Shown here piece by piece: positions 10,661 to 19,239 of a stretch of 64,000 bases of DNA. Source of the DNA: a virus (lineage: Duplodnaviria > Caudoviricetes). The notes below the pieces were generated by a model, which saw nothing but the letters and a program-made list of their open reading frames with translations, did no database searches and was not told the origin of the DNA. Location of the stretch: IMG/VR virus record IMGVR_UViG_3300031993_000008, positions 128,001 through 192,000 of that record; one strand, given 5' to 3'. Each line of letters begins with the position of its first letter. Position 1 is the first letter of the stretch. Position numbers and translations under genes: made by a program.

Positions 10661-11369
10661 TGATAATCTTATAGTATTCCTCATCAGTCTCAAAACCGAT
10701 GAACTTCCTTCCTGTGTTCAGACAGGCAACAGCAGTTGTACCTGAACCCATACAATTATCAAGTACCACATCACCTTCATTGGTGAATGTCTTGACCAAC
10801 TCTTCCAACAGTTTCAATGGTTTCTGTGTAGGATGAAGGTTTGATGTGAGTATATCCCTTTGGAACTTCCACACCTGGGTTGGGTATCTCTTACCTGTAT
10901 CAACATACTCTATAGGTTTCTTCATATTGTTGTCAGTCAGTTTCCCAAGTTTCCCATCCTTGACCTTGTTTGTTCTCGGAGGACCGTCATAAGTCAGCAT
11001 CTGGGGATTATATGTACACTGTTTCTTATAGAACACAGAGATGGTCTCCACATCCTTACCAACCCTTCTCTTCACCTGTTGTATGTTGGTGAGTCTTTCC
11101 TTCTGCCAGTATATGTCATACTTGTAGTCCTTCAGGTTACTCAATCTCACAAGCGAACTGAATGGTTCCTGACCAAACAACAGGATGGCACCATTATCCT
11201 TGATTATCCTGTCATACTGTTCCCATAACTTATCAAATGGGATTATAACATCCCAGAAACAGGAAGTTGAACCATAAGGAAGGTCACAGATGATACAGTC
11301 AATGGATTTGTCAGGGATTTCCTTCATTCCTTCAAGACAGTCCATATTATATACCTTATTGAGTTCCAT
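10635..11369 (-). CDS. Beta-class N6-adenine/N4-cytosine DNA methyltransferase (paralog of the neighbouring gene)
   Basis: DLPY, HPTQKP, DNCMGSGTT. Confidence 0.93.
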   Translation of the reverse strand: MELNKVYNMDCLEGMKEIPDKSIDCIICDLPYGSTSCFWDVIIPFDKLWEQYDRIIKDNGAILLFGQEPFSSLVRLSNLKDYKYDIYWQKERLTNIQQVKRRVGKDVETISVFYKKQCTYNPQMLTYDGPPRTNKVKDGKLGKLTDNNMKKPIEYVDTGKRYPTQVWKFQRDILTSNLHPTQKPLKLLEELVKTFTNEGDVVLDNCMGSGTTAVACLNTGRKFIGFETDEEYYKIINERIEQSI

Positions 11370-12130
11370 CAAAACAATTTGGAATTATATTCTGTTTTCT
11401 CTATCTCCAGTCTCTCTGTTGCCAGCTTGTAGTATTCTTCACTGAGTTCAAACCCTATATACTTCCTGTTTTCCCACAGTGCAGCAACAGCGGTGGTACC
11501 ACTTCCCATAAATGGGTCAAGTACAACATCTCCCTCATAGGTAAACAACCTTATACATCTTTTGGGAAGTTCAATAGGAAATGCCGCCGGGTGACCAACC
11601 TTACTCAATCTCTCACCATTGAACTCCCAGAGTCCATTACTCCAATCTATGAACTCCTTCCTTTCTATTGTGGCAACACCTGTATGTGTCAGTTTCATTG
11701 TTTTCCTGAACACAAGTATATACTCAAAACATCTTGGGAATGATGGAGATGACGGATTCATAAAACTTCCCCAGGCAGTCCTGTTACTTGAATTGTTCTT
11801 ATTCCATACAATGATGGTGAGGACATGGAAACCAATCTCCCTGGCAATCTGTATGAAATCTGAATGTGTGGGTATGGATCCATTCTTACCATCACCTATG
11901 TTTATACACATCCTTCCATCTTCTGCCAGGACTCTGTATGATTCCTGGAATATTTCCCTTATCCATTTCAGGTAATCATCATAAGGTTTGTTGTCATCAT
12001 ACTCATCATATTCAAGTCCTACATTATAAGGAGGAGATGTGATGATACAATTGACAACACCATCCGGAAGATTCTTCATACCTTCCAGACAATCCATATT
12101 ATAAATCTTATTAAAGTCCATAATACTCAT
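11369..12130 (-). CDS. Beta-class DNA methyltransferase, probably N4-cytosine
   Basis: TSPPY, HPAAFP, DPFMGSGTT. Confidence 0.92.
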   Translation of the reverse strand: MSIMDFNKIYNMDCLEGMKNLPDGVVNCIITSPPYNVGLEYDEYDDNKPYDDYLKWIREIFQESYRVLAEDGRMCINIGDGKNGSIPTHSDFIQIAREIGFHVLTIIVWNKNNSSNRTAWGSFMNPSSPSFPRCFEYILVFRKTMKLTHTGVATIERKEFIDWSNGLWEFNGERLSKVGHPAAFPIELPKRCIRLFTYEGDVVLDPFMGSGTTAVAALWENRKYIGFELSEEYYKLATERLEIEKTEYNSKLF

Positions 12131-12371
12131 CCTTACTCATCCAACCTTCCGGTTTAACAGTACTGATATGTACATAGTTTCCACATTCATGTGCATAGAG
12201 GTTTACACAGTTAAACAATTCATCTTTGTCAACTTCCTGTTCCACATAGTACAATGGGTTATGTTCATCACAAAGGTCACAGGCCTTTGCCCTACAAGTA
12301 AATTTTACATCTCCATCACCAAGACCACACTGATAATGGAGAATATAAATCTTAATCTTCTTATTGCTCAT
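12111..12371 (-). CDS. Small Cys/His-rich hypothetical protein
   Basis: 86 aa; middle motif 5 nt upstream of the ATG. Confidence 0.65.
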   Translation of the reverse strand: MSNKKIKIYILHYQCGLGDGDVKFTCRAKACDLCDEHNPLYYVEQEVDKDELFNCVNLYAHECGNYVHISTVKPEGWMSKDEYYGL

Positions 12372-12376
12372 ACAAT

Positions 12377-12388
12377 AAAAATAACAAA
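12377..12388 (-). promoter_or_regulatory. Putative middle promoter TTTGTTATTTTT, overlapping the U-tract of the nrdG terminator
   Basis: Recurrent 12-mer 5 nt before the ATG. Confidence 0.55.
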
Positions 12389-12415
12389 AGGTGAGTCATT
12401 CAACTCACCTTTCTT

Positions 12416-12898
12416 TTATAGTTTTTCACTTATGTCCTCACCAGTCTTCAAGTCAATTATCCTCTGATTGGTTGAACCTCTGAATGCCAGGGAAGTGTCC
12501 CTGTTGGAATGTTCATACAGACCGTCAACAAGAATGTCAGAGAGTTTCAGGATTTCTGGGAAGTGTTTCAGGCAATAGTCATAAGTATAACCTGTGTAGA
12601 TCCATACATCCTTTGTGTCACCAAACCTCTCCCTGAAATTCTGAAGGAGTTCCAACACACCATCAGGACTGTCAAGGGGATCACCACCACTCAATGTCAA
12701 TCCCTTGATGTAAGGTTTATCCATTTCATTGAACAACACTTCCTCAACCTTCTTGTCATATTCCTTACCTGAATTGAAACTCCAGGTCTTCCTGTTATGA
12801 CAGTTTCTGCAATGGTGGGTACACCCTCCAACCCAGAGGGTGGTTCTGCAACCCAATCCATTATTTACATCTGATGTCGTAATACTTATGTACTTCAT
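12416..12898 (-). CDS. nrdG: Anaerobic ribonucleotide reductase activating protein
   Basis: Radical SAM CxxxCxxC (CTHHCRNC), SGGDP, FRGSTNQR. Confidence 0.96.
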   Translation of the reverse strand: MKYISITTSDVNNGLGCRTTLWVGGCTHHCRNCHNRKTWSFNSGKEYDKKVEEVLFNEMDKPYIKGLTLSGGDPLDSPDGVLELLQNFRERFGDTKDVWIYTGYTYDYCLKHFPEILKLSDILVDGLYEHSNRDTSLAFRGSTNQRIIDLKTGEDISEKL

Positions 12899-12900
12899 AA

Positions 12901-15102
12901 TTAAATCTTCACTTCCTTGTTGTGTTTAACTCTGTCTTCTGTCTCTTTCTGCTTACCAAAATTGAAAGCAGTCTTATAATCGCCTGTAAGGTAGCCTGTC
13001 ACGCGGCGGAGTCTCTGAATCTTTGTACTTCCACACTGTGGGCAGGTATCACCAAGTTCACCCTGGTAACCACACTCTGTGCAGAGGTCATTAGGTGTAT
13101 TGACTGCAAAGTAAGGAATATCTTTGTCCATTGCATAGTTGACAATGGTTTCAAGGGCTTCTGTATTGTGAAGTACTGTTGAAGGAAGTTCAACATAAGT
13201 AATACAACCGGCAGAACTGTAACAAGTGAGTTGTGATTCAATATCAATCTTCTCAAATGGAGTAACCTTCTCCCAAACAGGAACATGCATTGAGTTGGTG
13301 AAGTATTCTCTGTCAGATACATTCTCAATCACACCATACTTGTCACGGAATTTCTTGAGTGCTGTGTAGCAAAGGTTCTCTGCTGGTGTGTAGTAAACAC
13401 CAAAGTTCAGACTGTACTCCTTTTTATATTCAGCACATCTGTCCTTGAAGAGTTGTTCAATTCTCTTTGCAAGTGCCATTCCCTCATCTGTGAGATGGTT
13501 CTTACCGATAAGGAGTTGAAGTGTCTCCGCAAGACCAAGCTGACCGATAACTATCGTACCATGCTTTAATGCTGACCTGATACCTTCCTCAGGAACATAT
13601 CCTGCCATTGTGCCATTGGTGTACATAAAGTCTGCTGACTTTGGTGACTGTGAGCAGATCCACTCGAATCTCTCGATAAGCATATCCTTTGCCTCACCTA
13701 TCTTCTTGTCAAGGAGTTTCATAAACTTCTCAACATCCCTGTCTGCTTCCATTGCAAGTGTAGGCATAATGATTGTAACAGGACATATGTTACCTCTACC
13801 ATCCTTCAACTGACCAAGACCATTCACATCCCAACCATTTGCTGTTCTACAACCCATTGTACTGAAATAAGTCCTGGGGTCATTGATGTCATAACCGGCA
13901 TTACCTGACCAGTCAACATTTGCATAATTAGGATAAAGTCTCTTTGCTGTTGACTTGAGGGCCAACTGATAAAGGTCATAGTTTGGTGTACCTGGTTTGT
14001 CATTCACACCTTTCATATACTGGAATATACCACAAGGGAAGATAGGTGTCTTATGGAACTTACCGAGACCGGCAATTGAAACCTCAAGGATTTTCTGTGT
14101 AACCATCCTTCCTTCTGGTGATGTACAGGTACCGTAGTTGATTGATGTGAAAGGCAACTGGTTACCTGACCTTGACTGAAGTGTATTCAGGTTATGATAC
14201 ATTCCTTCAACTGCCTGATAGGTTTCAGCCTCTGTCTGACCATAAGCATAATTGTAAATCTTTTGTAACTTATTTTTGAATTCCTCATTACCAAAACAGA
14301 GTTCACCAAACTCCTTTTCAAGTTCCTGGGTTTTGATTTCAGCATCATCCTTTGACATACCCTCAACAAACCTGTACCAACCTTTGACATGTTTCCTGAA
14401 TGATTTCTTCACATAAGGAACCATTGTCCAGTCAAGGTGTGTTGCTGATACACCACCAAACTGCTGAAGTGACTGCAACTGGAATATCACTGCAACCAGC
14501 TGCATCGCTGTATTGATTGAGTTGGCGGGACGGACATCAGTCTGCCTTGTATTGAATCCCTTTGCAAGAAGGTCATCAAAAGGTATTGAGAGACAGTTGT
14601 GCATACCTGCTGCATATGAATCTAAATCATGTATATATATTTCATTATTAAGATGATTGCTCTTTGACTTCTTTGACATACAGTATTTCAATGCATAGTC
14701 CTTTGTAACAACTCTGGTAACCTCACCCATTCTTCCGCCGAATGAATACTCATCTACATTGGCATTCTGGTTTTCTACATTCTTTGCGAGGAGTTTCTTT
14801 TCCACATCCTTTGTGAGCTGATTCTTTTCCTCTCTCATTGCTTTGTGTTCTGCCCTGTAAATGATGAAGTTCTTAGCAACACATGGGTAATACTTCATAA
14901 GGTACTTCTCAATCTTGTCCTGAATGTCTTCAACATTGATTGATTCTTCCCCATACTTGTCTACCCATTCCTTGATGAAGTCATATACCTCAACAGGAGT
15001 CTCCATCTCCTTTGAGGCAAATGCCTTGTCAAGTACATTGTAGATCTTCTCAATACGGAAGTGGGCACTGGTGCCATCTCTTTTTATTACCGTTTTGATC
15101 AT
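12901..15102 (-). CDS. nrdD: Class III anaerobic ribonucleoside-triphosphate reductase with ATP cone
   Basis: VIKRDG ATP cone, IHDLD, MGCR, TPAENL, YFTNS, CTECG/CPQCG, RRVTGYL glycyl-radical loop. Confidence 0.97.
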   Translation of the reverse strand: MIKTVIKRDGTSAHFRIEKIYNVLDKAFASKEMETPVEVYDFIKEWVDKYGEESINVEDIQDKIEKYLMKYYPCVAKNFIIYRAEHKAMREEKNQLTKDVEKKLLAKNVENQNANVDEYSFGGRMGEVTRVVTKDYALKYCMSKKSKSNHLNNEIYIHDLDSYAAGMHNCLSIPFDDLLAKGFNTRQTDVRPANSINTAMQLVAVIFQLQSLQQFGGVSATHLDWTMVPYVKKSFRKHVKGWYRFVEGMSKDDAEIKTQELEKEFGELCFGNEEFKNKLQKIYNYAYGQTEAETYQAVEGMYHNLNTLQSRSGNQLPFTSINYGTCTSPEGRMVTQKILEVSIAGLGKFHKTPIFPCGIFQYMKGVNDKPGTPNYDLYQLALKSTAKRLYPNYANVDWSGNAGYDINDPRTYFSTMGCRTANGWDVNGLGQLKDGRGNICPVTIIMPTLAMEADRDVEKFMKLLDKKIGEAKDMLIERFEWICSQSPKSADFMYTNGTMAGYVPEEGIRSALKHGTIVIGQLGLAETLQLLIGKNHLTDEGMALAKRIEQLFKDRCAEYKKEYSLNFGVYYTPAENLCYTALKKFRDKYGVIENVSDREYFTNSMHVPVWEKVTPFEKIDIESQLTCYSSAGCITYVELPSTVLHNTEALETIVNYAMDKDIPYFAVNTPNDLCTECGYQGELGDTCPQCGSTKIQRLRRVTGYLTGDYKTAFNFGKQKETEDRVKHNKEVKI

Positions 15103-15123
15103 ACAAAAATTGTTTATTATATA

Positions 15124-15795
15124 TTATATTGTTTCACCACAGTTAAGTTGGTTAACTATGGTGTTTGTGTTCTCATCAATAGTGAAGTAGTTGTGATAAA
15201 CAGCAACTGTACCATTATATACATTCTCTCTTTCTTCCAGGAATCTCACACTCTCGACAGTCTTGTATTCATAATTGTCTGATGATGTACATACCTTGGT
15301 CAGTTTAATATTATAGAGATCTGCCTCATATCCTTCCCTGGTGCAGACCTCTCTCATATCCCAGATACACTCAAACTCCTCTCCTGATACCTCACATCTC
15401 TTTATGACAGTACCTTTCTTTGTTCCTGTGTATTCTGTAAACTTCCTGTCCTTCTCGTCAATATCAAGTGGAAGAACAGAATTATTCTTAATTGTCACAA
15501 TTTTATATCCCTCATATAAATCACCGGCATACACATAACCTTCATCTGTAAGGAACATATGGTTCAGTGTCGATTTCAATACTGTCCCGTCAGTCAATGT
15601 AATTTCAATGATTCCTATATTGTATCCCGACAACCTGGGATGGAACATTTTTGATACCTTTATATTACCATCGTCGTCAAGGCAATATACATTCACATCA
15701 TCACCGGAATCCGCCAGGTCCTTGAAGGATTTGGGTCCTTCTACTGTCCACACTTTGGTATCTCCTGTTACACAAGGATTTAGATTTTTCATCAT
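15124..15795 (-). CDS. Stand-alone mini-intein (Hint domain, 15142-15774) with 7-aa and 5-aa RNR-derived exteins
   Basis: NP|CVTGDTKV block A; TLNH block B; VYNGTVAVYHNYF block F; terminal N|CGE. Confidence 0.88.
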   Translation of the reverse strand: MMKNLNPCVTGDTKVWTVEGPKSFKDLADSGDDVNVYCLDDDGNIKVSKMFHPRLSGYNIGIIEITLTDGTVLKSTLNHMFLTDEGYVYAGDLYEGYKIVTIKNNSVLPLDIDEKDRKFTEYTGTKKGTVIKRCEVSGEEFECIWDMREVCTREGYEADLYNIKLTKVCTSSDNYEYKTVESVRFLEERENVYNGTVAVYHNYFTIDENTNTIVNQLNCGETI

Positions 15796-15817
15796 AAAAA
15801 ATTGATTAAAATTAAAC

Positions 15818-16348
15818 TTAAATTTCTGATTTCGGCGATAAATTATTTATGTATTCATCGACCGATTTTTCACTCTCCAACCTTAAGTTCCAGATACTGA
15901 AATCCTTAAAGTCTTTTGCATCATTTTTGAGGCGGACTTCATTGTCATCGCCCACCTTGTTTGTGTATCTATTGTTCAGTCTCTGTCTCCTTACTTCCTC
16001 TGGAATGTCAAGATAAATGATTGTAAATCTGTCTCTTAACTCTGGGAACTGTTCAAACACATCCCTCACATTAGCTGGTGAGAGGATTGCCACATCGGAG
16101 TTGATGAGTTCATCATAAGAGACTCCATACCAACCGATCCTATAGAAGTTTACTGATATGAAACTGCCTTTATTTTCCATATCCTTAAATACAGGTTCAG
16201 AGACAAAATGATACTCATCTCCAGTCTCATTTTCTCTCCTCTCCCTGGTGGTATATTGCTTCATTGGATGATAGCCTTTTTCCTCCATTTTCTTGATGAG
16301 CCAGTCTTTTCCGGAAGCACCTGGACCCACAATGATATATTTACTCAT
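15818..16348 (-). CDS. gmk: Guanylate kinase-like protein
   Basis: GPGASGKD P-loop, YTTRERRENE..GDEYHFVS, WYGV. Confidence 0.88.
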   Translation of the reverse strand: MSKYIIVGPGASGKDWLIKKMEEKGYHPMKQYTTRERRENETGDEYHFVSEPVFKDMENKGSFISVNFYRIGWYGVSYDELINSDVAILSPANVRDVFEQFPELRDRFTIIYLDIPEEVRRQRLNNRYTNKVGDDNEVRLKNDAKDFKDFSIWNLRLESEKSVDEYINNLSPKSEI

Positions 16349-16505
16349 TCAAATACTTTTTAAAGTTCTCAATGAGGTCACCTTTGAGGTTGTTGTTCCA
16401 TTCATCCTGTGACATTGGTATCTGTTTGACACTGTCACCAGCAAGATGGATCTCAGCAACCTCCTTACCTACATTATATGTTACTCTGTAAATCTCTCCT
16501 TTCAT
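16341..16505 (-). CDS. Small hypothetical protein
   Basis: ATG 16505 lies 5 nt after the middle motif at 16511-16522. Confidence 0.6.
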   Translation of the reverse strand: MKGEIYRVTYNVGKEVAEIHLAGDSVKQIPMSQDEWNNNLKGDLIENFKKYLNE

Positions 16506-16510
16506 ATAAG

Positions 16511-16522
16511 AAAGATAACAAA
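16511..16522 (-). promoter_or_regulatory. Putative middle promoter TTTGTTATCTTT, directly after terminator hairpin 16526-16546
   Basis: Recurrent 12-mer. Confidence 0.55.
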
Positions 16523-16644
16523 AAAGGAGATGATTTCTCATCTCCATTGTAAATAAAATATAATGTATTATATCTTAAAGATTTATCTCATAAAATCAAT
16601 TGTTATCAAATGGCCCGTTTGTAATATTATAAGAATATAAAGAT

Positions 16645-16824
16645 TTAAAATCCGAGATAGACAAACAGAAAATAACAGATGAAATAAAAGACAAAGAATA
16701 TAAGAAGAAACCTAATACCTGTATACAACAGACTGATTATGAAAGATATAAGTTTCCATATGACAGGTACAAGAATGATTATACCTACTATGATAAATGC
16801 TGTTATAATGATTGTTGATAACAT
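16645..16824 (-). CDS. 59-aa membrane protein with two predicted TM segments (missing from the ORF track)
   Basis: MLSTIIITAFIIVGIIILVPVIWKLISFIISLLYTGIRFLLIFFVFYFICYFLFVYLGF*; has its own host-type promoter. Confidence 0.7.
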   Translation of the reverse strand: MLSTIIITAFIIVGIIILVPVIWKLISFIISLLYTGIRFLLIFFVFYFICYFLFVYLGF

Positions 16825-16846
16825 ATGTTTTGTTTTATTTCCAATA

Positions 16847-16878
16847 CAAATATAATGGATTTATTTGATATTTCCAAA
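16847..16878 (-). promoter_or_regulatory. Bacteroidota primary-sigma (early) promoter
   Basis: TTTG-N20-TATATTTG matches the -33/-7 consensus. Confidence 0.75.
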
Positions 16879-16890
16879 TTTATTTTACTT

Positions 16891-16898
16891 CATAAATA
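16891..16898 (+). promoter_or_regulatory. Putative late promoter CATAAATA
   Basis: Upstream of 16924. Confidence 0.6.
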
Positions 16899-16923
16899 AC
16901 TTATAGTATTTTTTAATCATTTT

Positions 16924-19239
16924 ATGGGAGAACTTATAAACATCAAACATTATGATGAATATGTTAATATTCTGAATGAGGACCTGATTCATGGTGAACA
17001 GTCTGCACTGAACAGGGCATTTATGAATGGTGGTCCTATTACATTTGCAGATGGTTCAAGCGTCACTCCTAAAGAGATTGTCAATGCTGTGAACAATGCA
17101 TTGATGTGGCTCAATTCGGAATTTTCAAGAACATTCACCTTTGCAAAGAATACATTGAATATCATATATCTTCCTCACAGTAATAAAATCAAGACAATGG
17201 CTGTTGATGAACATATGAACCTTTATATGAATGTGGGTTACATATATCATAAACTGAAGATGGATAAGGAACTTATCGCAGCCGTAATTATGCATGAGGT
17301 ATTCCATGCCCTGTTTGATCATATCAACAGAGGCAAGAACTGGTTGATGGCAAAAGGAAAGTCAACTACACCCAGTACCTGGCATGATACCAACCTTGCT
17401 GCTGATGTGGAGGTTAACAGGACATTGGTAAGGATAGGTCTTATTGAAGAGGAAAGACTTGTTAAAGAAATAAAAGGTATGTACCTCAAGAAGAGTGACG
17501 GCAGTAGGGATATTGTTCCTATGGAGGTTATTCTTGATGATGAGGAATATATGAAGAAATTGAGGTCAATGTGTCCTCCTGACAGTGAAATGGATATGCC
17601 TGGTAGTAACAAAACAATTGAAACTACAGAAGAATGGGATAATGGATATAAGGATGCATGGAATAAGGTTGCAGGACTTATCAAGAAATATGGACATAAG
17701 GGTGCCTGGCAGAAACTTATGGATGCAGGAATTGTCAATGCTGTAGGTGAAATATACACAAAGAATAACATAGAGGACATTATGGCAATTGAATTCCTCA
17801 CTGTAAAATCATATGAGGATTATATCAATGAAGACTTGAATGTTCCAAATTCAGATGCAGGAAAGACTTATGACAGTGGATTCATGACTGCTTTCAAAGA
17901 CCTTATGAAGAAACTTTATGATAGTGTCAATCCTTCAGAAGGAGGAAGTATGGATGTTCCTGATAATGGTGGTTCTGGTCCTAAATATAAATCAGGTCTC
18001 AAGAATGAGGATCTTGATGAGATTGAATTTCCTAAACAGAAAAGTAAAGACAAGAAGAAAGAGGATGATGATTCCCTCCCTTCAAACATAAAACAGGGAA
18101 GTGATGATGAAGGTGACGGTAATGATTCCGGAGATGAAATGAGAGGAGGAAAATCTGCCGGTGCCGGAAATGATGGAAAGGATGATGATGAACTGACAGA
18201 TGATGACATCAATAAACTTGCAGATGACATCAACAAGAGAACCAATGGTGGAAAGGATAAAATTTCAACACAGCAGGATATTGAATACAGAGGTGTTGGA
18301 GGTACAGGTTCATTCCAGGAAAAGGGTTTGTCTGATGATGATCTGAAAGAAGCAGGATACAGTGATGAAGACCTTGCTGAAATCAATAAGGTGAGAAAGT
18401 CAAACGAGACCAACAATTCAAAGGCCAATATCCAGAAACAGATGGAAAGGATGAAGAGAGATCTCCCAAAGGGTGATATAATAAGGAGAACTCTTGATGC
18501 AATAGAAATAGAGTCCAACAAGTATAAGAATTTGTGGAAAGACATGCTTGAGGACTTTATGTCAAAGAAGACCAGAAGGGCGGGTAGGGATTTGCCTAAT
18601 GGAAAGAATGACTGGATCAACAAAAAGAACATAGCAAGAGGTGAATATGGAATCCACCGTAAGAATACATCCCAGGATCCCCAGGATGTGAATGTCTATG
18701 TGGATGTATCTGGTTCTATGGATTTGGAACTTCTTGAAATAATAAGCAAGTCTCTTGTGGTGTTCACACAGCAATGGGAGTATTCAGGTCTGAATATCTG
18801 TCCTTGGGCATCAAGGAGTAACGGTGTTCATAAGGTTGATGACTTCTATAGTAAGAGTGAAGGAGAGATAACAAAACAGATTCTTGAGATAATATCAAAA
18901 GGTGAGAGTCAGTGTGGCGGAGGAACTGATGCATCAGCAGTCATAGCTGCAATGCTTGATGCAATAGAAGAGTCATTGGGTGATGAAAACAAGGATGAAA
19001 AGGATGATGTCCATGTTGTCATTACTGACGGTTATTTTGACTATCAGGGTGTTGAGGACAGGATTTCCAGGTCTATTATGAGTTCAATCAAGAGAAATGA
19101 TGTTGCTGCCAAAGCACCGGAGAATACATTCTGGATGATATATGATGCACCGGAATCCCTTAAGGATAGTTGGAAGAAGGAAATCAAGAAGGGAAGACTT
19201 ATTTTCATCAACTCTGAGGTTGTAAAGAATAATGGATAA
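16924..19239 (+). CDS. DUF2201-type metallopeptidase plus VWA domain protein
   Basis: TMAVD, HEVFH (HExxH), NLAADVEVN; acidic linker; DVSGS MIDAS, GGGTD, ITDG. Confidence 0.88.
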   Translation: MGELINIKHYDEYVNILNEDLIHGEQSALNRAFMNGGPITFADGSSVTPKEIVNAVNNALMWLNSEFSRTFTFAKNTLNIIYLPHSNKIKTMAVDEHMNLYMNVGYIYHKLKMDKELIAAVIMHEVFHALFDHINRGKNWLMAKGKSTTPSTWHDTNLAADVEVNRTLVRIGLIEEERLVKEIKGMYLKKSDGSRDIVPMEVILDDEEYMKKLRSMCPPDSEMDMPGSNKTIETTEEWDNGYKDAWNKVAGLIKKYGHKGAWQKLMDAGIVNAVGEIYTKNNIEDIMAIEFLTVKSYEDYINEDLNVPNSDAGKTYDSGFMTAFKDLMKKLYDSVNPSEGGSMDVPDNGGSGPKYKSGLKNEDLDEIEFPKQKSKDKKKEDDDSLPSNIKQGSDDEGDGNDSGDEMRGGKSAGAGNDGKDDDELTDDDINKLADDINKRTNGGKDKISTQQDIEYRGVGGTGSFQEKGLSDDDLKEAGYSDEDLAEINKVRKSNETNNSKANIQKQMERMKRDLPKGDIIRRTLDAIEIESNKYKNLWKDMLEDFMSKKTRRAGRDLPNGKNDWINKKNIARGEYGIHRKNTSQDPQDVNVYVDVSGSMDLELLEIISKSLVVFTQQWEYSGLNICPWASRSNGVHKVDDFYSKSEGEITKQILEIISKGESQCGGGTDASAVIAAMLDAIEESLGDENKDEKDDVHVVITDGYFDYQGVEDRISRSIMSSIKRNDVAAKAPENTFWMIYDAPESLKDSWKKEIKKGRLIFINSEVVKNNG

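What the first reader, a model, noticed from the sequence alone, without database searches (positions are those of the whole stretch)
15124..15795. Orphan intein that outlived its host ribonucleotide reductase
Seen in sequence: the 223-aa ORF consists of MMKNLNP, a 211-aa intein (C1, TxxH, block F YNxTV..HNY, terminal Asn) and CGETI*. Only about 22 nt separate it from gmk and from nrdD, leaving no room for a host gene. Established knowledge: NPCGE is the active-site finger loop of class II (and related class I) RNRs and a known intein insertion site. Splicing would release only the 12-mer MMKNLNPCGETI. There is no intact homing endonuclease, only a short Cys-containing linker. Inference: the nrdJ/nrdA host gene was deleted or replaced by nrdD, yet the intein was kept with a clean start, a clean stop and its catalytic residues. 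That suggests domestication (for example as a redox/metal sensor, a peptide release device or a trans-acting ligase) or a very recent relic.
Basis: partly seen in the sequence, partly recalled or inferred. Interest (0 to 1): 0.8.

Follow-up and report, generated by a model that had tools for sequence, protein, structure and literature searches.

The report
Host-less intein kept as phage gene
A giant gut/rumen phage carries a complete self-splicing protein element (an intein) as a gene of its own, although the ribonucleotide reductase gene it once interrupted is gone; selection has kept it, its catalytic residues and its few leftover host residues across a whole phage clade, so this former parasite probably now works for the phage.

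Summary
Window 15124-15795(-) encodes MMKNLNP, a 211-aa class-1 intein and CGETI. It lies 22 nt after a gmk-like kinase gene and 21 nt before an intact nrdD-nrdG.

- **Origin:** its nearest embedded relatives are inteins at the NP|CGE thiyl-cysteine site of class I/II-type ribonucleotide reductases. No such reductase was found in this 248-kb phage record or in a 94%-complete relative.
- **Not a recent relic:** more than 220 free-standing homologues (down to 43% identity) form one clade. All 20 readable loci show gmk, then intein, then nrdD.
- **Selection:** dN/dS is 0.12, the same as gmk. All residues conserved across the embedded family are kept, and so are the stub residues LNP and CGE.
- **Expression signal:** a gene-start motif (CATAAATA) lies upstream and is conserved in 18 of 19 relatives with enough upstream sequence.
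- **Exceptions:** one subclade lost the +1 Cys through a 1-nt insertion yet stays under constraint, and one relative lacks the gene.

I read it as a domesticated, probably still self-processing Hint plus Cys-cluster protein. Its cellular job is unknown.

The scan has met this family before on other DNA, with the same verdict. One paper on gut jumbo phages lists stand-alone "Intein_splicing" genes but does not analyse them.

The parts
15124..15795 (-). Free-standing intein gene (223 codons + TAA)
   Evidence: ORF list and sequence; Pfam PF14890; AF2 pLDDT 90; intein fold Z 18
15775..15795 (-). N-extein stub MMKNLNP (relatives: MKKLNP or MNKLNP)
   Evidence: In 121 cluster representatives L-3 is kept in 118, N-2 in 120 and P-1 in 121. 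It matches the (T)NP that precedes Cys1 in embedded RNR inteins
15142..15774 (-). Intein body Cys8..Asn218 (211 aa): Hint N lobe, Cys-motif insert, Hint C lobe
   Evidence: Alignments; every residue conserved across the embedded family is kept in 13 diverse orphans
15268..15480 (-). ~70-aa insert at the usual endonuclease position, with TKKGT, C134, C143, W145, ERE and C151
   Evidence: No Pfam match. Embedded relatives have CxxC...CxxxC at the same place. The Cys pattern differs between orphan clades. pLDDT is 82-95 inside the whole protein but 55 when folded alone
15127..15141 (-). C-extein stub CGETI (relatives: CGE then stop)
   Evidence: C+1, G+2 and E+3 are each kept in 120 of 121 representatives. 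It matches the CGE after the terminal Asn/Gln of embedded RNR inteins
15844..15851 (-). CATAAATA gene-start/promoter-like motif, 48 nt upstream of the intein ATG, inside the last codons of gmk
   Evidence: 16 copies in the window against 6.8 expected, and 13 of them lie 5-73 nt before a long ORF on the same strand. It is present 54-72 nt upstream of the intein ATG in 18 of 19 relatives with enough upstream sequence; in the L019 clade it overlaps the gmk stop codon
15818..16348 (-). gmk-like nucleotide kinase, the constant upstream neighbour
   Evidence: Pfam Guanylate_kin, E 1.1e-7; synteny
12901..15102 (-). nrdD, complete class III (anaerobic) ribonucleotide reductase with ATP-cone, the constant downstream neighbour
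   Evidence: Pfam NRDD, E 4.5e-154, plus ATP-cone and Gly_radical; synteny
12416..12898 (-). nrdG activase
   Evidence: Pfam Fer4_12 and Radical_SAM
12386..12413 (-). Terminator-like hairpin that closes the intein-nrdD-nrdG unit
   Evidence: 12-bp stem followed by a T run
15103..15124 (-). Conserved AT-rich element (ATATATAATA) between the intein stop and the nrdD start
   Evidence: Seen in the relatives, and in the intein-less locus L034

Best explanation
This is a domesticated, host-less intein.

**Origin (shown by phylogeny).** An intein sitting at the thiyl-radical cysteine site (NP|CGE) of a class I/II-type ribonucleotide reductase lost its host gene once, in an ancestor of a clade of 230-410-kb gut/rumen phages. 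Only 6-7 N-terminal and 3-5 C-terminal host residues were left.

**History since (shown).** The 220-aa gene has been inherited together with its neighbours, a gmk-like kinase upstream and nrdD-nrdG downstream. It evolves under the same purifying selection as the kinase.

**Transcription (inferred).** It has its own conserved gene-start motif and probably heads the intein-nrdD-nrdG transcription unit.

**Chemistry (inferred).** The catalytic residues and the junction-flanking stub residues are kept although no reductase function needs them. The protein therefore most likely still self-processes. The steps would be an N-S acyl shift at Cys1, transfer to Cys+1, then Asn218 cyclisation. This would release a 9-12-residue peptide and a 211-aa acidic Hint plus Cys-cluster protein.

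**Where the function lies (inferred).** The selected function probably lies in the intein body and its N-terminal thioester chemistry, not in the ligated peptide. A subclade that lost Cys+1 is still under strong constraint.

**Cellular role.** Not known. My best guess, with low confidence, is a protein-binding or sensing accessory of anaerobic dNTP synthesis.
For: **Anatomy and fold:**

**Origin**
- All 82 embedded relatives kept carry the intein at (T)NP|C...[N/Q]|CGE.
- All nine that were scanned are RNR large subunits; seven carry the RNR barrel domain PF02867, and some have class-II hallmarks (TSCPD, RNR_Alpha).
- The 22 orphans form one clade (SH-aLRT 94), sister to the intein of a 1333-aa RNR.

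**No host gene**
- No PF02867 match in the 248-kb record or in two related records, one of them 94% complete.
- This is the only Hint domain in the record.

**Persistence**
- 226 homologues of 212-243 aa.
- More distant free-standing members at 51% and 46% identity.
- gmk, then intein, then nrdD in all 20 readable loci, including three (L012, L018, L034) whose nrdD is only 25-28% identical.

**Selection**
- Median dN/dS is 0.125 over the whole gene, and 0.13-0.18 in the N lobe, the insert and the C lobe taken separately.
- On the same pairs the intein gives 0.124 and gmk 0.122.
- Pairwise distances track those of gmk (r 0.94, slope 1.03).

**Chemistry kept**
- Of 121 representatives, C1 is kept in 120, H79 in 121, N194 in 121, H201 in 121, N218 in 119 and C+1, G+2 and E+3 in 120 each.
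- Every residue conserved across the embedded family is kept in 13 diverse orphans.
- All six junction-flanking stub residues are at least 97.5% conserved, against 51% of body sites, with synonymous variation in their codons.

**Function in the body:** the subclade L015-L017 ends at the terminal Asn because of a 1-nt insertion (AAC TGA TGG TGA A), yet L016 against L017 gives dN/dS 0.06.

**Own expression signal:**
Against: - Nothing has been tested at the bench. Splicing or cleavage is inferred from conserved residues only.
- One relative (L034) has gmk followed directly by nrdD with no intein, so the gene is dispensable in at least one lineage.
- The subclade without Cys+1 shows that full splicing is not always needed.
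- Two of 121 representatives carry C1R or N218T.
- No RNA data set holding this DNA was listed.
- No interaction partner or biochemical activity can be named. The link to nrdD rests on position alone, and it persists even when nrdD is swapped for a distant type.
Confidence: 0.6

Rival explanations
1. Single-turnover peptide device. The useful product is what the Hint chemistry releases or transfers: the ligated 9-12-mer (MKKLNP-CGE), or the N-stub as a thioester passed to an outside nucleophile. This would work like the Hedgehog or BUBL Hint domains.
For: The stub residues are as conserved as the catalytic ones. The residues for the N-S acyl shift (C1, T76, H79) are kept even in the subclade without Cys+1, which carries a longer 13-aa N-stub ending in Cys. 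Hedgehog and BIL/BUBL Hint domains are close structural matches (Z 14.8-15.9).
Against: Stub length and sequence vary between clades (MKKLNP+CGE; MMKNLNP+CGETI; MKKNVNA+CGESYIRK; 13 aa with no C-stub). The whole 211-aa body, including the insert, is under equally strong constraint. That is more than a one-shot release device should need.
Confidence: 0.12
2. Still a selfish element. It would persist like a free-standing homing gene at a recombination hot spot next to nrdD, perhaps helped by endonucleases encoded nearby, and give the phage nothing.
For: The nrd locus of the relatives is full of homing-endonuclease insertions: GIY-YIG in L002, NUMOD3 proteins in L008 and L019. The nrdD-nrdG cassette has been swapped right after the intein (L012). 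The intein tree only partly follows the flanks within the main clade (r 0.64). One relative lacks the gene. The yeast WHO/HO elements show that intein-derived genes can home next to a conserved gene (PMC7282813).
Against: No nuclease domain was found. The protein is strongly acidic, with pI 4.5-5.1 and net charge -12 to -20, which makes DNA binding unlikely. The gene is present in all 20 readable loci that carry an intein match and absent from one further relative (L034), and it has co-diverged with gmk down to 43% identity. That pattern fits vertical descent rather than invasion. A selfish element without a host gene has no reason to keep its splicing residues.
Confidence: 0.1
3. Leader cistron. 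The ORF is kept only because translating it, or its spacing, is needed to express nrdD-nrdG from the upstream CATAAATA signal.
For: It is the first ORF after the conserved gene-start motif, and only 21-36 nt separate it from nrdD. In the intein-less L034 the same motif precedes nrdD directly.
Against: dN/dS is 0.12 and specific catalytic residues are invariant, so selection acts on the protein sequence and not just on an open frame.
Confidence: 0.04
4. Decaying relic of a recent gene loss, or an assembly artefact.
For: The junction decay in L015-L017, the loss in L034, and rare C1R and N218T variants.
Against: Hundreds of intact copies from independent assemblies. Synonymous sites are saturated between clades while the frame and the catalytic residues are kept.
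Confidence: 0.02

Closest known systems
Embedded mini-inteins and HNH inteins at the NP|CGE thiyl-cysteine site of class I/II-type ribonucleotide reductase large subunits (for example P0128, P0130, P0141, P0166; solved relative: NrdJ-1 intein, PDB 8ubs)
   Same: Homologous sequence (30-52% identity) and the same flanking residues NP and CGE. The same conserved blocks (C1, TxxH, MxxPR, VYNGTV..HN, terminal Asn). A Cys-motif insert of about the same size in the mini forms. Same fold (Z 17.8 to 8ubs).
   Different: There is no host protein: the exteins are 7 and 5 residues, and no RNR of that class is in the genome record. Some residues are invariant only in the orphans (TKKGT, H52, Y200, Q216) and the Cys pattern of the insert has changed.
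HO endonuclease and WHO elements of budding yeasts (PMC7282813)
   Same: Intein-derived, extein-less, stand-alone genes kept by selection. WHO genes sit beside a conserved metabolic gene.
   Different: HO and WHO keep a LAGLIDADG nuclease, carry a C-terminal zinc finger, lack motif G and do not splice. The phage protein has no nuclease, is acidic, and keeps motif G, the terminal Asn, Cys+1 and short exteins.
Non-splicing Hint autoprocessing domains: Hedgehog C-terminal domain (1at0), bacterial intein-like domain (2lwy), Tetrahymena BUBL BIL2 (6tmm)
   Same: Same fold (Z 14.8-15.9). They show that Hint thioester chemistry can serve cleavage or transfer rather than splicing. The L015-L017 subclade, which lacks Cys+1, can only work this way.
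   Different: No specific sequence kinship: PT-HINT scores 24 bits, below its cut-off of 27.7. Those domains process large functional N-terminal proteins, whereas here the N-stub is 6-13 residues.
Stand-alone 'Intein_splicing' genes listed for Jug (jumbo gut) phages (PMC12880540)
   Same: Gut jumbo phages of 360-402 kb with nrdD loci full of introns and endonucleases. The paper counts 26 Intein_splicing proteins and describes nearly all of the listed endonuclease and intein genes as stand-alone. L008 of the present family comes from a human gut assembly.
   Different: The paper treats them as insertion elements that fragment genes. It gives no analysis of origin, exteins or selection. I could not check whether they are the same family, because the supplement is not held.

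Membership tests
Class 1 intein (Hint splicing domain) | Hint/intein fold | tested here: met
   PF14890 above its cut-off; AF2 pLDDT 90; Z 18.0 and rmsd 1.5 A to the NpuDnaB intein
Class 1 intein (Hint splicing domain) | Block A Cys1, block B TxxH, block F, terminal Asn, +1 Cys/Ser/Thr | tested here: met
   C8, T76..H79, VYNGTV..YHNYF, N218 and C219 are present and kept in 119-121 of 121 representatives. The penultimate His is absent (Leu), as in the embedded relatives
Class 1 intein (Hint splicing domain) | Inserted in frame in a host protein whose halves are ligated into a functional product | tested here: not met
   The exteins are 7 and 5 residues. The neighbouring genes are complete and in other frames. 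No RNR of class I/II in the record
Class 1 intein (Hint splicing domain) | Protein splicing activity | not testable with these tools
   Needs expression of a tagged precursor
RNR NP|CGE-site intein family | Sequence kinship with inteins at that site, and the same flanking residues | tested here: met
   phmmer hits E 1e-14 to 1e-25 to RNR-embedded inteins; flanks; the orphan clade nests among them
RNR NP|CGE-site intein family | Host is a ribonucleotide reductase large subunit | tested here: not met
   No PF02867 match in G000, G001 or G002
Homing-endonuclease intein or free-standing homing gene (HO/WHO-like) | LAGLIDADG, HNH, GIY-YIG or other nuclease domain | tested here: inconclusive
   No Pfam nuclease family at E up to 10 on the insert or on the whole protein. 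The insert is only ~70 aa, has no conserved His/Asn catalytic pattern and is acidic. The insert folded alone gave too poor a model to search by fold
Bacterial intein-like / Hedgehog-type autoprocessing Hint | Family-specific sequence profile | tested here: not met
   PT-HINT scores 24 bits, below its cut-off of 27.7; no other Hint family was reported
Bacterial intein-like / Hedgehog-type autoprocessing Hint | Cleavage or transfer without ligation (no +1 nucleophile) | tested here: inconclusive
   The window copy has Cys+1. The subclade L015-L017 has none. The chemistry was not assayed

The most novel reading that the evidence does not exclude
The orphan intein is a working enzyme-like device rather than a passive scaffold. 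It would be a single-turnover thioester generator, gated by its Cys cluster (zinc or redox state), that makes or transfers a short active-site-loop peptide, or that switches its own state to tune the oxygen-sensitive NrdD/NrdG system encoded just downstream. That would make it the first viral case of protein-splicing chemistry recruited for a function other than repairing a host protein.
Probability: 0.12. Interest if true: 0.85.

Novelty: new variant of a known kind. Interest (0 to 1): 0.62.

Why it matters
Inteins are textbook molecular parasites. Their splicing residues are thought to be kept only because failure to splice would destroy an essential host protein. Here the host protein is gone, yet the splicing residues, and even the six flanking host residues, are conserved as strongly as a neighbouring enzyme. 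This holds across a phage clade that has diverged to about 45% identity.

This is a natural experiment on a long-standing question: can inteins have functions of their own? It is easy to test, because the gene is small and soluble-looking, and there are natural variants without Cys+1 and natural deletions.

The only well-studied domesticated intein, yeast HO, kept the nuclease and lost the splicing chemistry. This case looks like the opposite.

Tried and rejected
- **The look-up of encoding contigs:** The genomic context of the distant or odd members P0121, P0122, P0123, P0126, P0129 and of the sister RNR P0128 could not be read. P0122, P0123, P0126 and P0129 are singletons on contigs of 0.8-3 kb, so I did not use them as evidence.
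- **Search for a 'missing link':** looking for a phage with gmk followed by an intein-bearing RNR, using P0128 as query, gave only distant intein-less RNRs. Two of those loci do have a gmk-like kinase directly before a class II-type RNR, which is weak support at best.
- **Insert domain:** no Pfam family, no useful protein-atlas neighbour, and a poor model when folded alone (pLDDT 55), so it was not searched by fold.
- **Intein-less locus L034:** no deletion scar. Only the AT-rich element upstream of nrdD matches.
- **RNA families:** no Rfam family in window 11000-18000 or in five relatives with an interrupted nrdD.
- **Expression:** no RNA holder listed among the sequencing runs.
- **Other collections:** no copy in GenBank phage records. 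No free-standing copy in the bacterial and archaeal species genomes, only RNR-embedded relatives.
- **ATATATAATA as a general promoter:** rejected, because the other copies lie inside genes.
- **Read-through or frameshift fusion with gmk or nrdD:** rejected. The frames and spacer lengths differ between loci, and both neighbours are complete.
- **Supplement of the Jug phage paper:** not held.

Full report
**1. What is there**

Window 15124-15795 (minus strand) is an ORF of 223 codons. It reads MMKNLNP, then Cys8...Asn218, then CGETI and a stop. It lies 22 nt after a gmk-like kinase gene (15818-16348). It lies 21 nt before a complete class III ribonucleotide reductase gene, nrdD (12901-15102), which has an ATP-cone, an NRDD domain and a glycyl-radical domain. 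nrdG (12416-12898) and a terminator-like hairpin follow.

The ORF is a bona fide intein:
- It matches Pfam Intein_splicing above the curated cut-off.
- It folds with mean pLDDT 90.
- It superposes on solved mini-inteins: NpuDnaB at Z 18.0 and rmsd 1.5 A over 139 residues, and NrdJ-1 at Z 17.8.
- Cys1, block B T76..H79, block F VYNGTV..YHNYF, the terminal Asn218 and Cys+1 are all present.

About 70 residues (106-176) sit where inteins usually carry an endonuclease. They match no Pfam family.

The window is part of a 248-kb IMG/VR virus record. The best DNA holders are bovine gut metagenomes.

**2. Where it came from**

A full-library search found about 1070 relatives. Beyond the free-standing family, these are long proteins. 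In the 82 embedded relatives kept for analysis, the intein sits between (T)NP and CGE. All nine that I scanned are ribonucleotide reductase large subunits. Seven carry the RNR barrel domain (PF02867), and some have class II hallmarks (TSCPD, RNR_Alpha).

The stubs LNP and CGE of the phage ORF are therefore the remains of the reductase loop that carries the thiyl-radical cysteine.

In a tree of the Hint lobes, the 22 free-standing sequences form a single clade (SH-aLRT 94). Their sister is the HNH-bearing intein of a 1333-aa reductase. This fits one loss of the host gene.

No reductase of that class was found by six-frame search of this record, or of two related records, one of which is 94% complete. 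This ORF is the only Hint domain in the record.

Bacterial species genomes hold only embedded relatives, some of them in Bacteroidota. GenBank phage records hold none.

**3. It is not a recent relic**

- A search restricted to similar lengths found 226 homologues; 116 of the 120 best listed are 219-221 aa.
- Of those 120, 115 start with M[KN]KLNP-type stubs and end in NCGE.
- More distant free-standing members have 51% and 46% identity.
- In all 20 loci that could be read, the order is gmk, intein, nrdD. This holds from 83% down to 43% intein identity.
- In L012 and L018, nrdD-nrdG has been replaced by a type only 25-28% identical, while gmk and the intein stay.
- Median pairwise dN/dS is 0.125. 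It is similar in the N lobe, the insert and the C lobe.
- On the same pairs the intein gives 0.124 and gmk 0.122.
- Intein distances follow gmk distances (r 0.94, slope 1.03), so the gene is inherited with its neighbours.

**4. What selection keeps**

Among 121 cluster representatives, the following are kept:

| Residue | Kept in |
|---|---|
| C1 | 120 |
| H79 | 121 |
| N194 | 121 |
| H201 | 121 |
| N218 | 119 |
| C+1 | 120 |
| G+2 | 120 |
| E+3 | 120 |
| L-3 | 118 |
| N-2 | 120 |
| P-1 | 121 |

All six junction-flanking stub residues are at least 97.5% conserved, against 51% of positions in the intein body. Their codons show synonymous variation.

Every residue that is conserved across the embedded family is also kept in 13 diverse orphans. 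In addition, some residues are invariant only in the orphans: T17, K22, S48, H52, L82, T83, Y200, T205, D207 and Q216, and the TKKGT loop of the insert.

The insert is ancestral. Embedded mini-inteins of the family carry CxxC...CxxxC at the same place. The distant orphan clade and P0121 have CxxC...C..H. The main clade has lost the second Cys (now Ser/Thr) and gained C143. This looks like migration of a metal ligand, but metal binding is untested.

The protein is strongly acidic (pI 4.5-5.1, net charge -12 to -20). This argues against DNA binding.

**5. Exceptions that inform the mechanism**

In L015-L017, a 1-nt insertion turned AAC TGT GGT GAA into AAC TGA TGG TGA A. The protein therefore ends at the terminal Asn, or at Asp in L017. 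In the same subclade the N-stub has grown to 13 residues ending in Cys. Splicing is impossible there, yet L016 against L017 gives dN/dS 0.06.

One relative, L034, has gmk followed after 63 nt by nrdD, with no intein and no scar. On the gmk tree it groups with the intein-bearing L018 (support 84/81), and the most distant clade carries the intein. Secondary loss is therefore the likelier reading.

**6. Expression signals**

CATAAATA occurs 16 times in the window, against 6.8 expected. Thirteen of the copies lie 5-73 nt before a long ORF on the same strand. This lead came from earlier notes of the scan.

One copy lies 48 nt before the intein ATG, inside the last codons of gmk. It is present 54-72 nt upstream of the intein in 18 of 19 relatives with enough upstream sequence. 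In the L019 clade it overlaps the gmk stop codon, which is a different coding context.

The intein therefore probably heads an intein-nrdD-nrdG unit that ends at the hairpin at 12386-12413. No RNA data were available to check this.

**7. Reading**

Shown:
- the anatomy of the ORF;
- its origin at the reductase NP|CGE site;
- the absence of such a reductase from the genome records searched;
- a single origin of the free-standing form;
- the constant position between gmk and nrdD;
- purifying selection as strong as on gmk;
- retention of the catalytic residues and the stub residues.

Inferred:
- The protein still performs Hint chemistry. Full splicing would give a 9-12-mer and a 211-aa body. In the subclade without Cys+1, only the N-terminal thioester and cleavage steps are possible.
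- The selected function lies in the body.

Unknown: the cellular role. The position suggests a link to anaerobic dNTP synthesis, but the link survives a swap of nrdD type, so a specific NrdD contact is doubtful.

Rivals are listed in their own section. They are a peptide or thioester-transfer device, a still-selfish element in a locus rich in homing endonucleases, a leader cistron, and a relic.

**8. Comparison and novelty**

The closest relatives by descent are the embedded reductase inteins. The closest analogue is yeast HO/WHO, which is extein-less and domesticated (PMC7282813). HO kept a nuclease and lost motif G, whereas this protein has no nuclease and keeps the whole splicing apparatus.

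A paper on Jug gut jumbo phages counts 26 Intein_splicing proteins, describes nearly all of its listed endonuclease and intein genes as stand-alone, and describes fragmented nrdD genes. It does not analyse the intein genes (PMC12880540). Full-text searches for free-standing, orphan or extein-less inteins found nothing closer.

The scan itself has met this family before on other genomes, with the same verdict, and has met analogous orphan inteins elsewhere. I re-derived the claims independently here.

I class it as a new variant of a known kind.

Noticed in passing
L002:3574-4636, L008:1960-3093, L019:2635-3820 (also L020, L028): In several relatives nrdD is interrupted by ~1.1-kb insertions that carry homing-endonuclease-type ORFs: GIY-YIG in L002, NUMOD3 proteins in L008 and L019. 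No Rfam group I intron reached the gathering score. The window's own nrdD is uninterrupted.
   Followed up: partly
L012:1118-4932, L018:5705-6259, L034:6589-10274: The nrdD-nrdG cassette has been exchanged for a type only 25-28% (NrdD) and ~35% (NrdG) identical, while gmk, the intein and the downstream methyltransferase stay 70-80% identical. The exchange boundary falls right after the intein stop and the AT-rich element.
   Followed up: partly
window 15103-15124 (-) and the same place in all relatives, including intein-less L034:6565-6585: A conserved AT-rich element (ATATATAATA-like) lies directly upstream of the nrdD start. It is not a general promoter motif of the phage, because the other copies lie inside genes.
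   Followed up: partly
window, 16 sites (for example 5868, 8014, 16891, 19244, 34215, 38596, 42834, 60821): CATAAATA is over-represented (16 against 6.8 expected) and lies 5-73 nt before the start of a long ORF on the same strand in 13 cases. It behaves as a gene-start or promoter motif.
   Followed up: partly
window 16341-16547 (-): A 68-aa ORF with no Pfam match overlaps the gmk start. It is conserved upstream of gmk in nearly all relatives (44-65% identity).
   Followed up: no
L041:7433-11224 and L039: In unrelated phage contigs a gmk-like kinase (28-29% identical) directly precedes a class II-type ribonucleotide reductase. That reductase is split by an insertion encoding a 264-aa ORF, and its active-site loop reads NPCAE.
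   Followed up: no
window 11369-12130 (-) and relatives (L001:9521-10994): One or two DNA methyltransferase-like genes follow nrdG. Their number varies between relatives.
   Followed up: no
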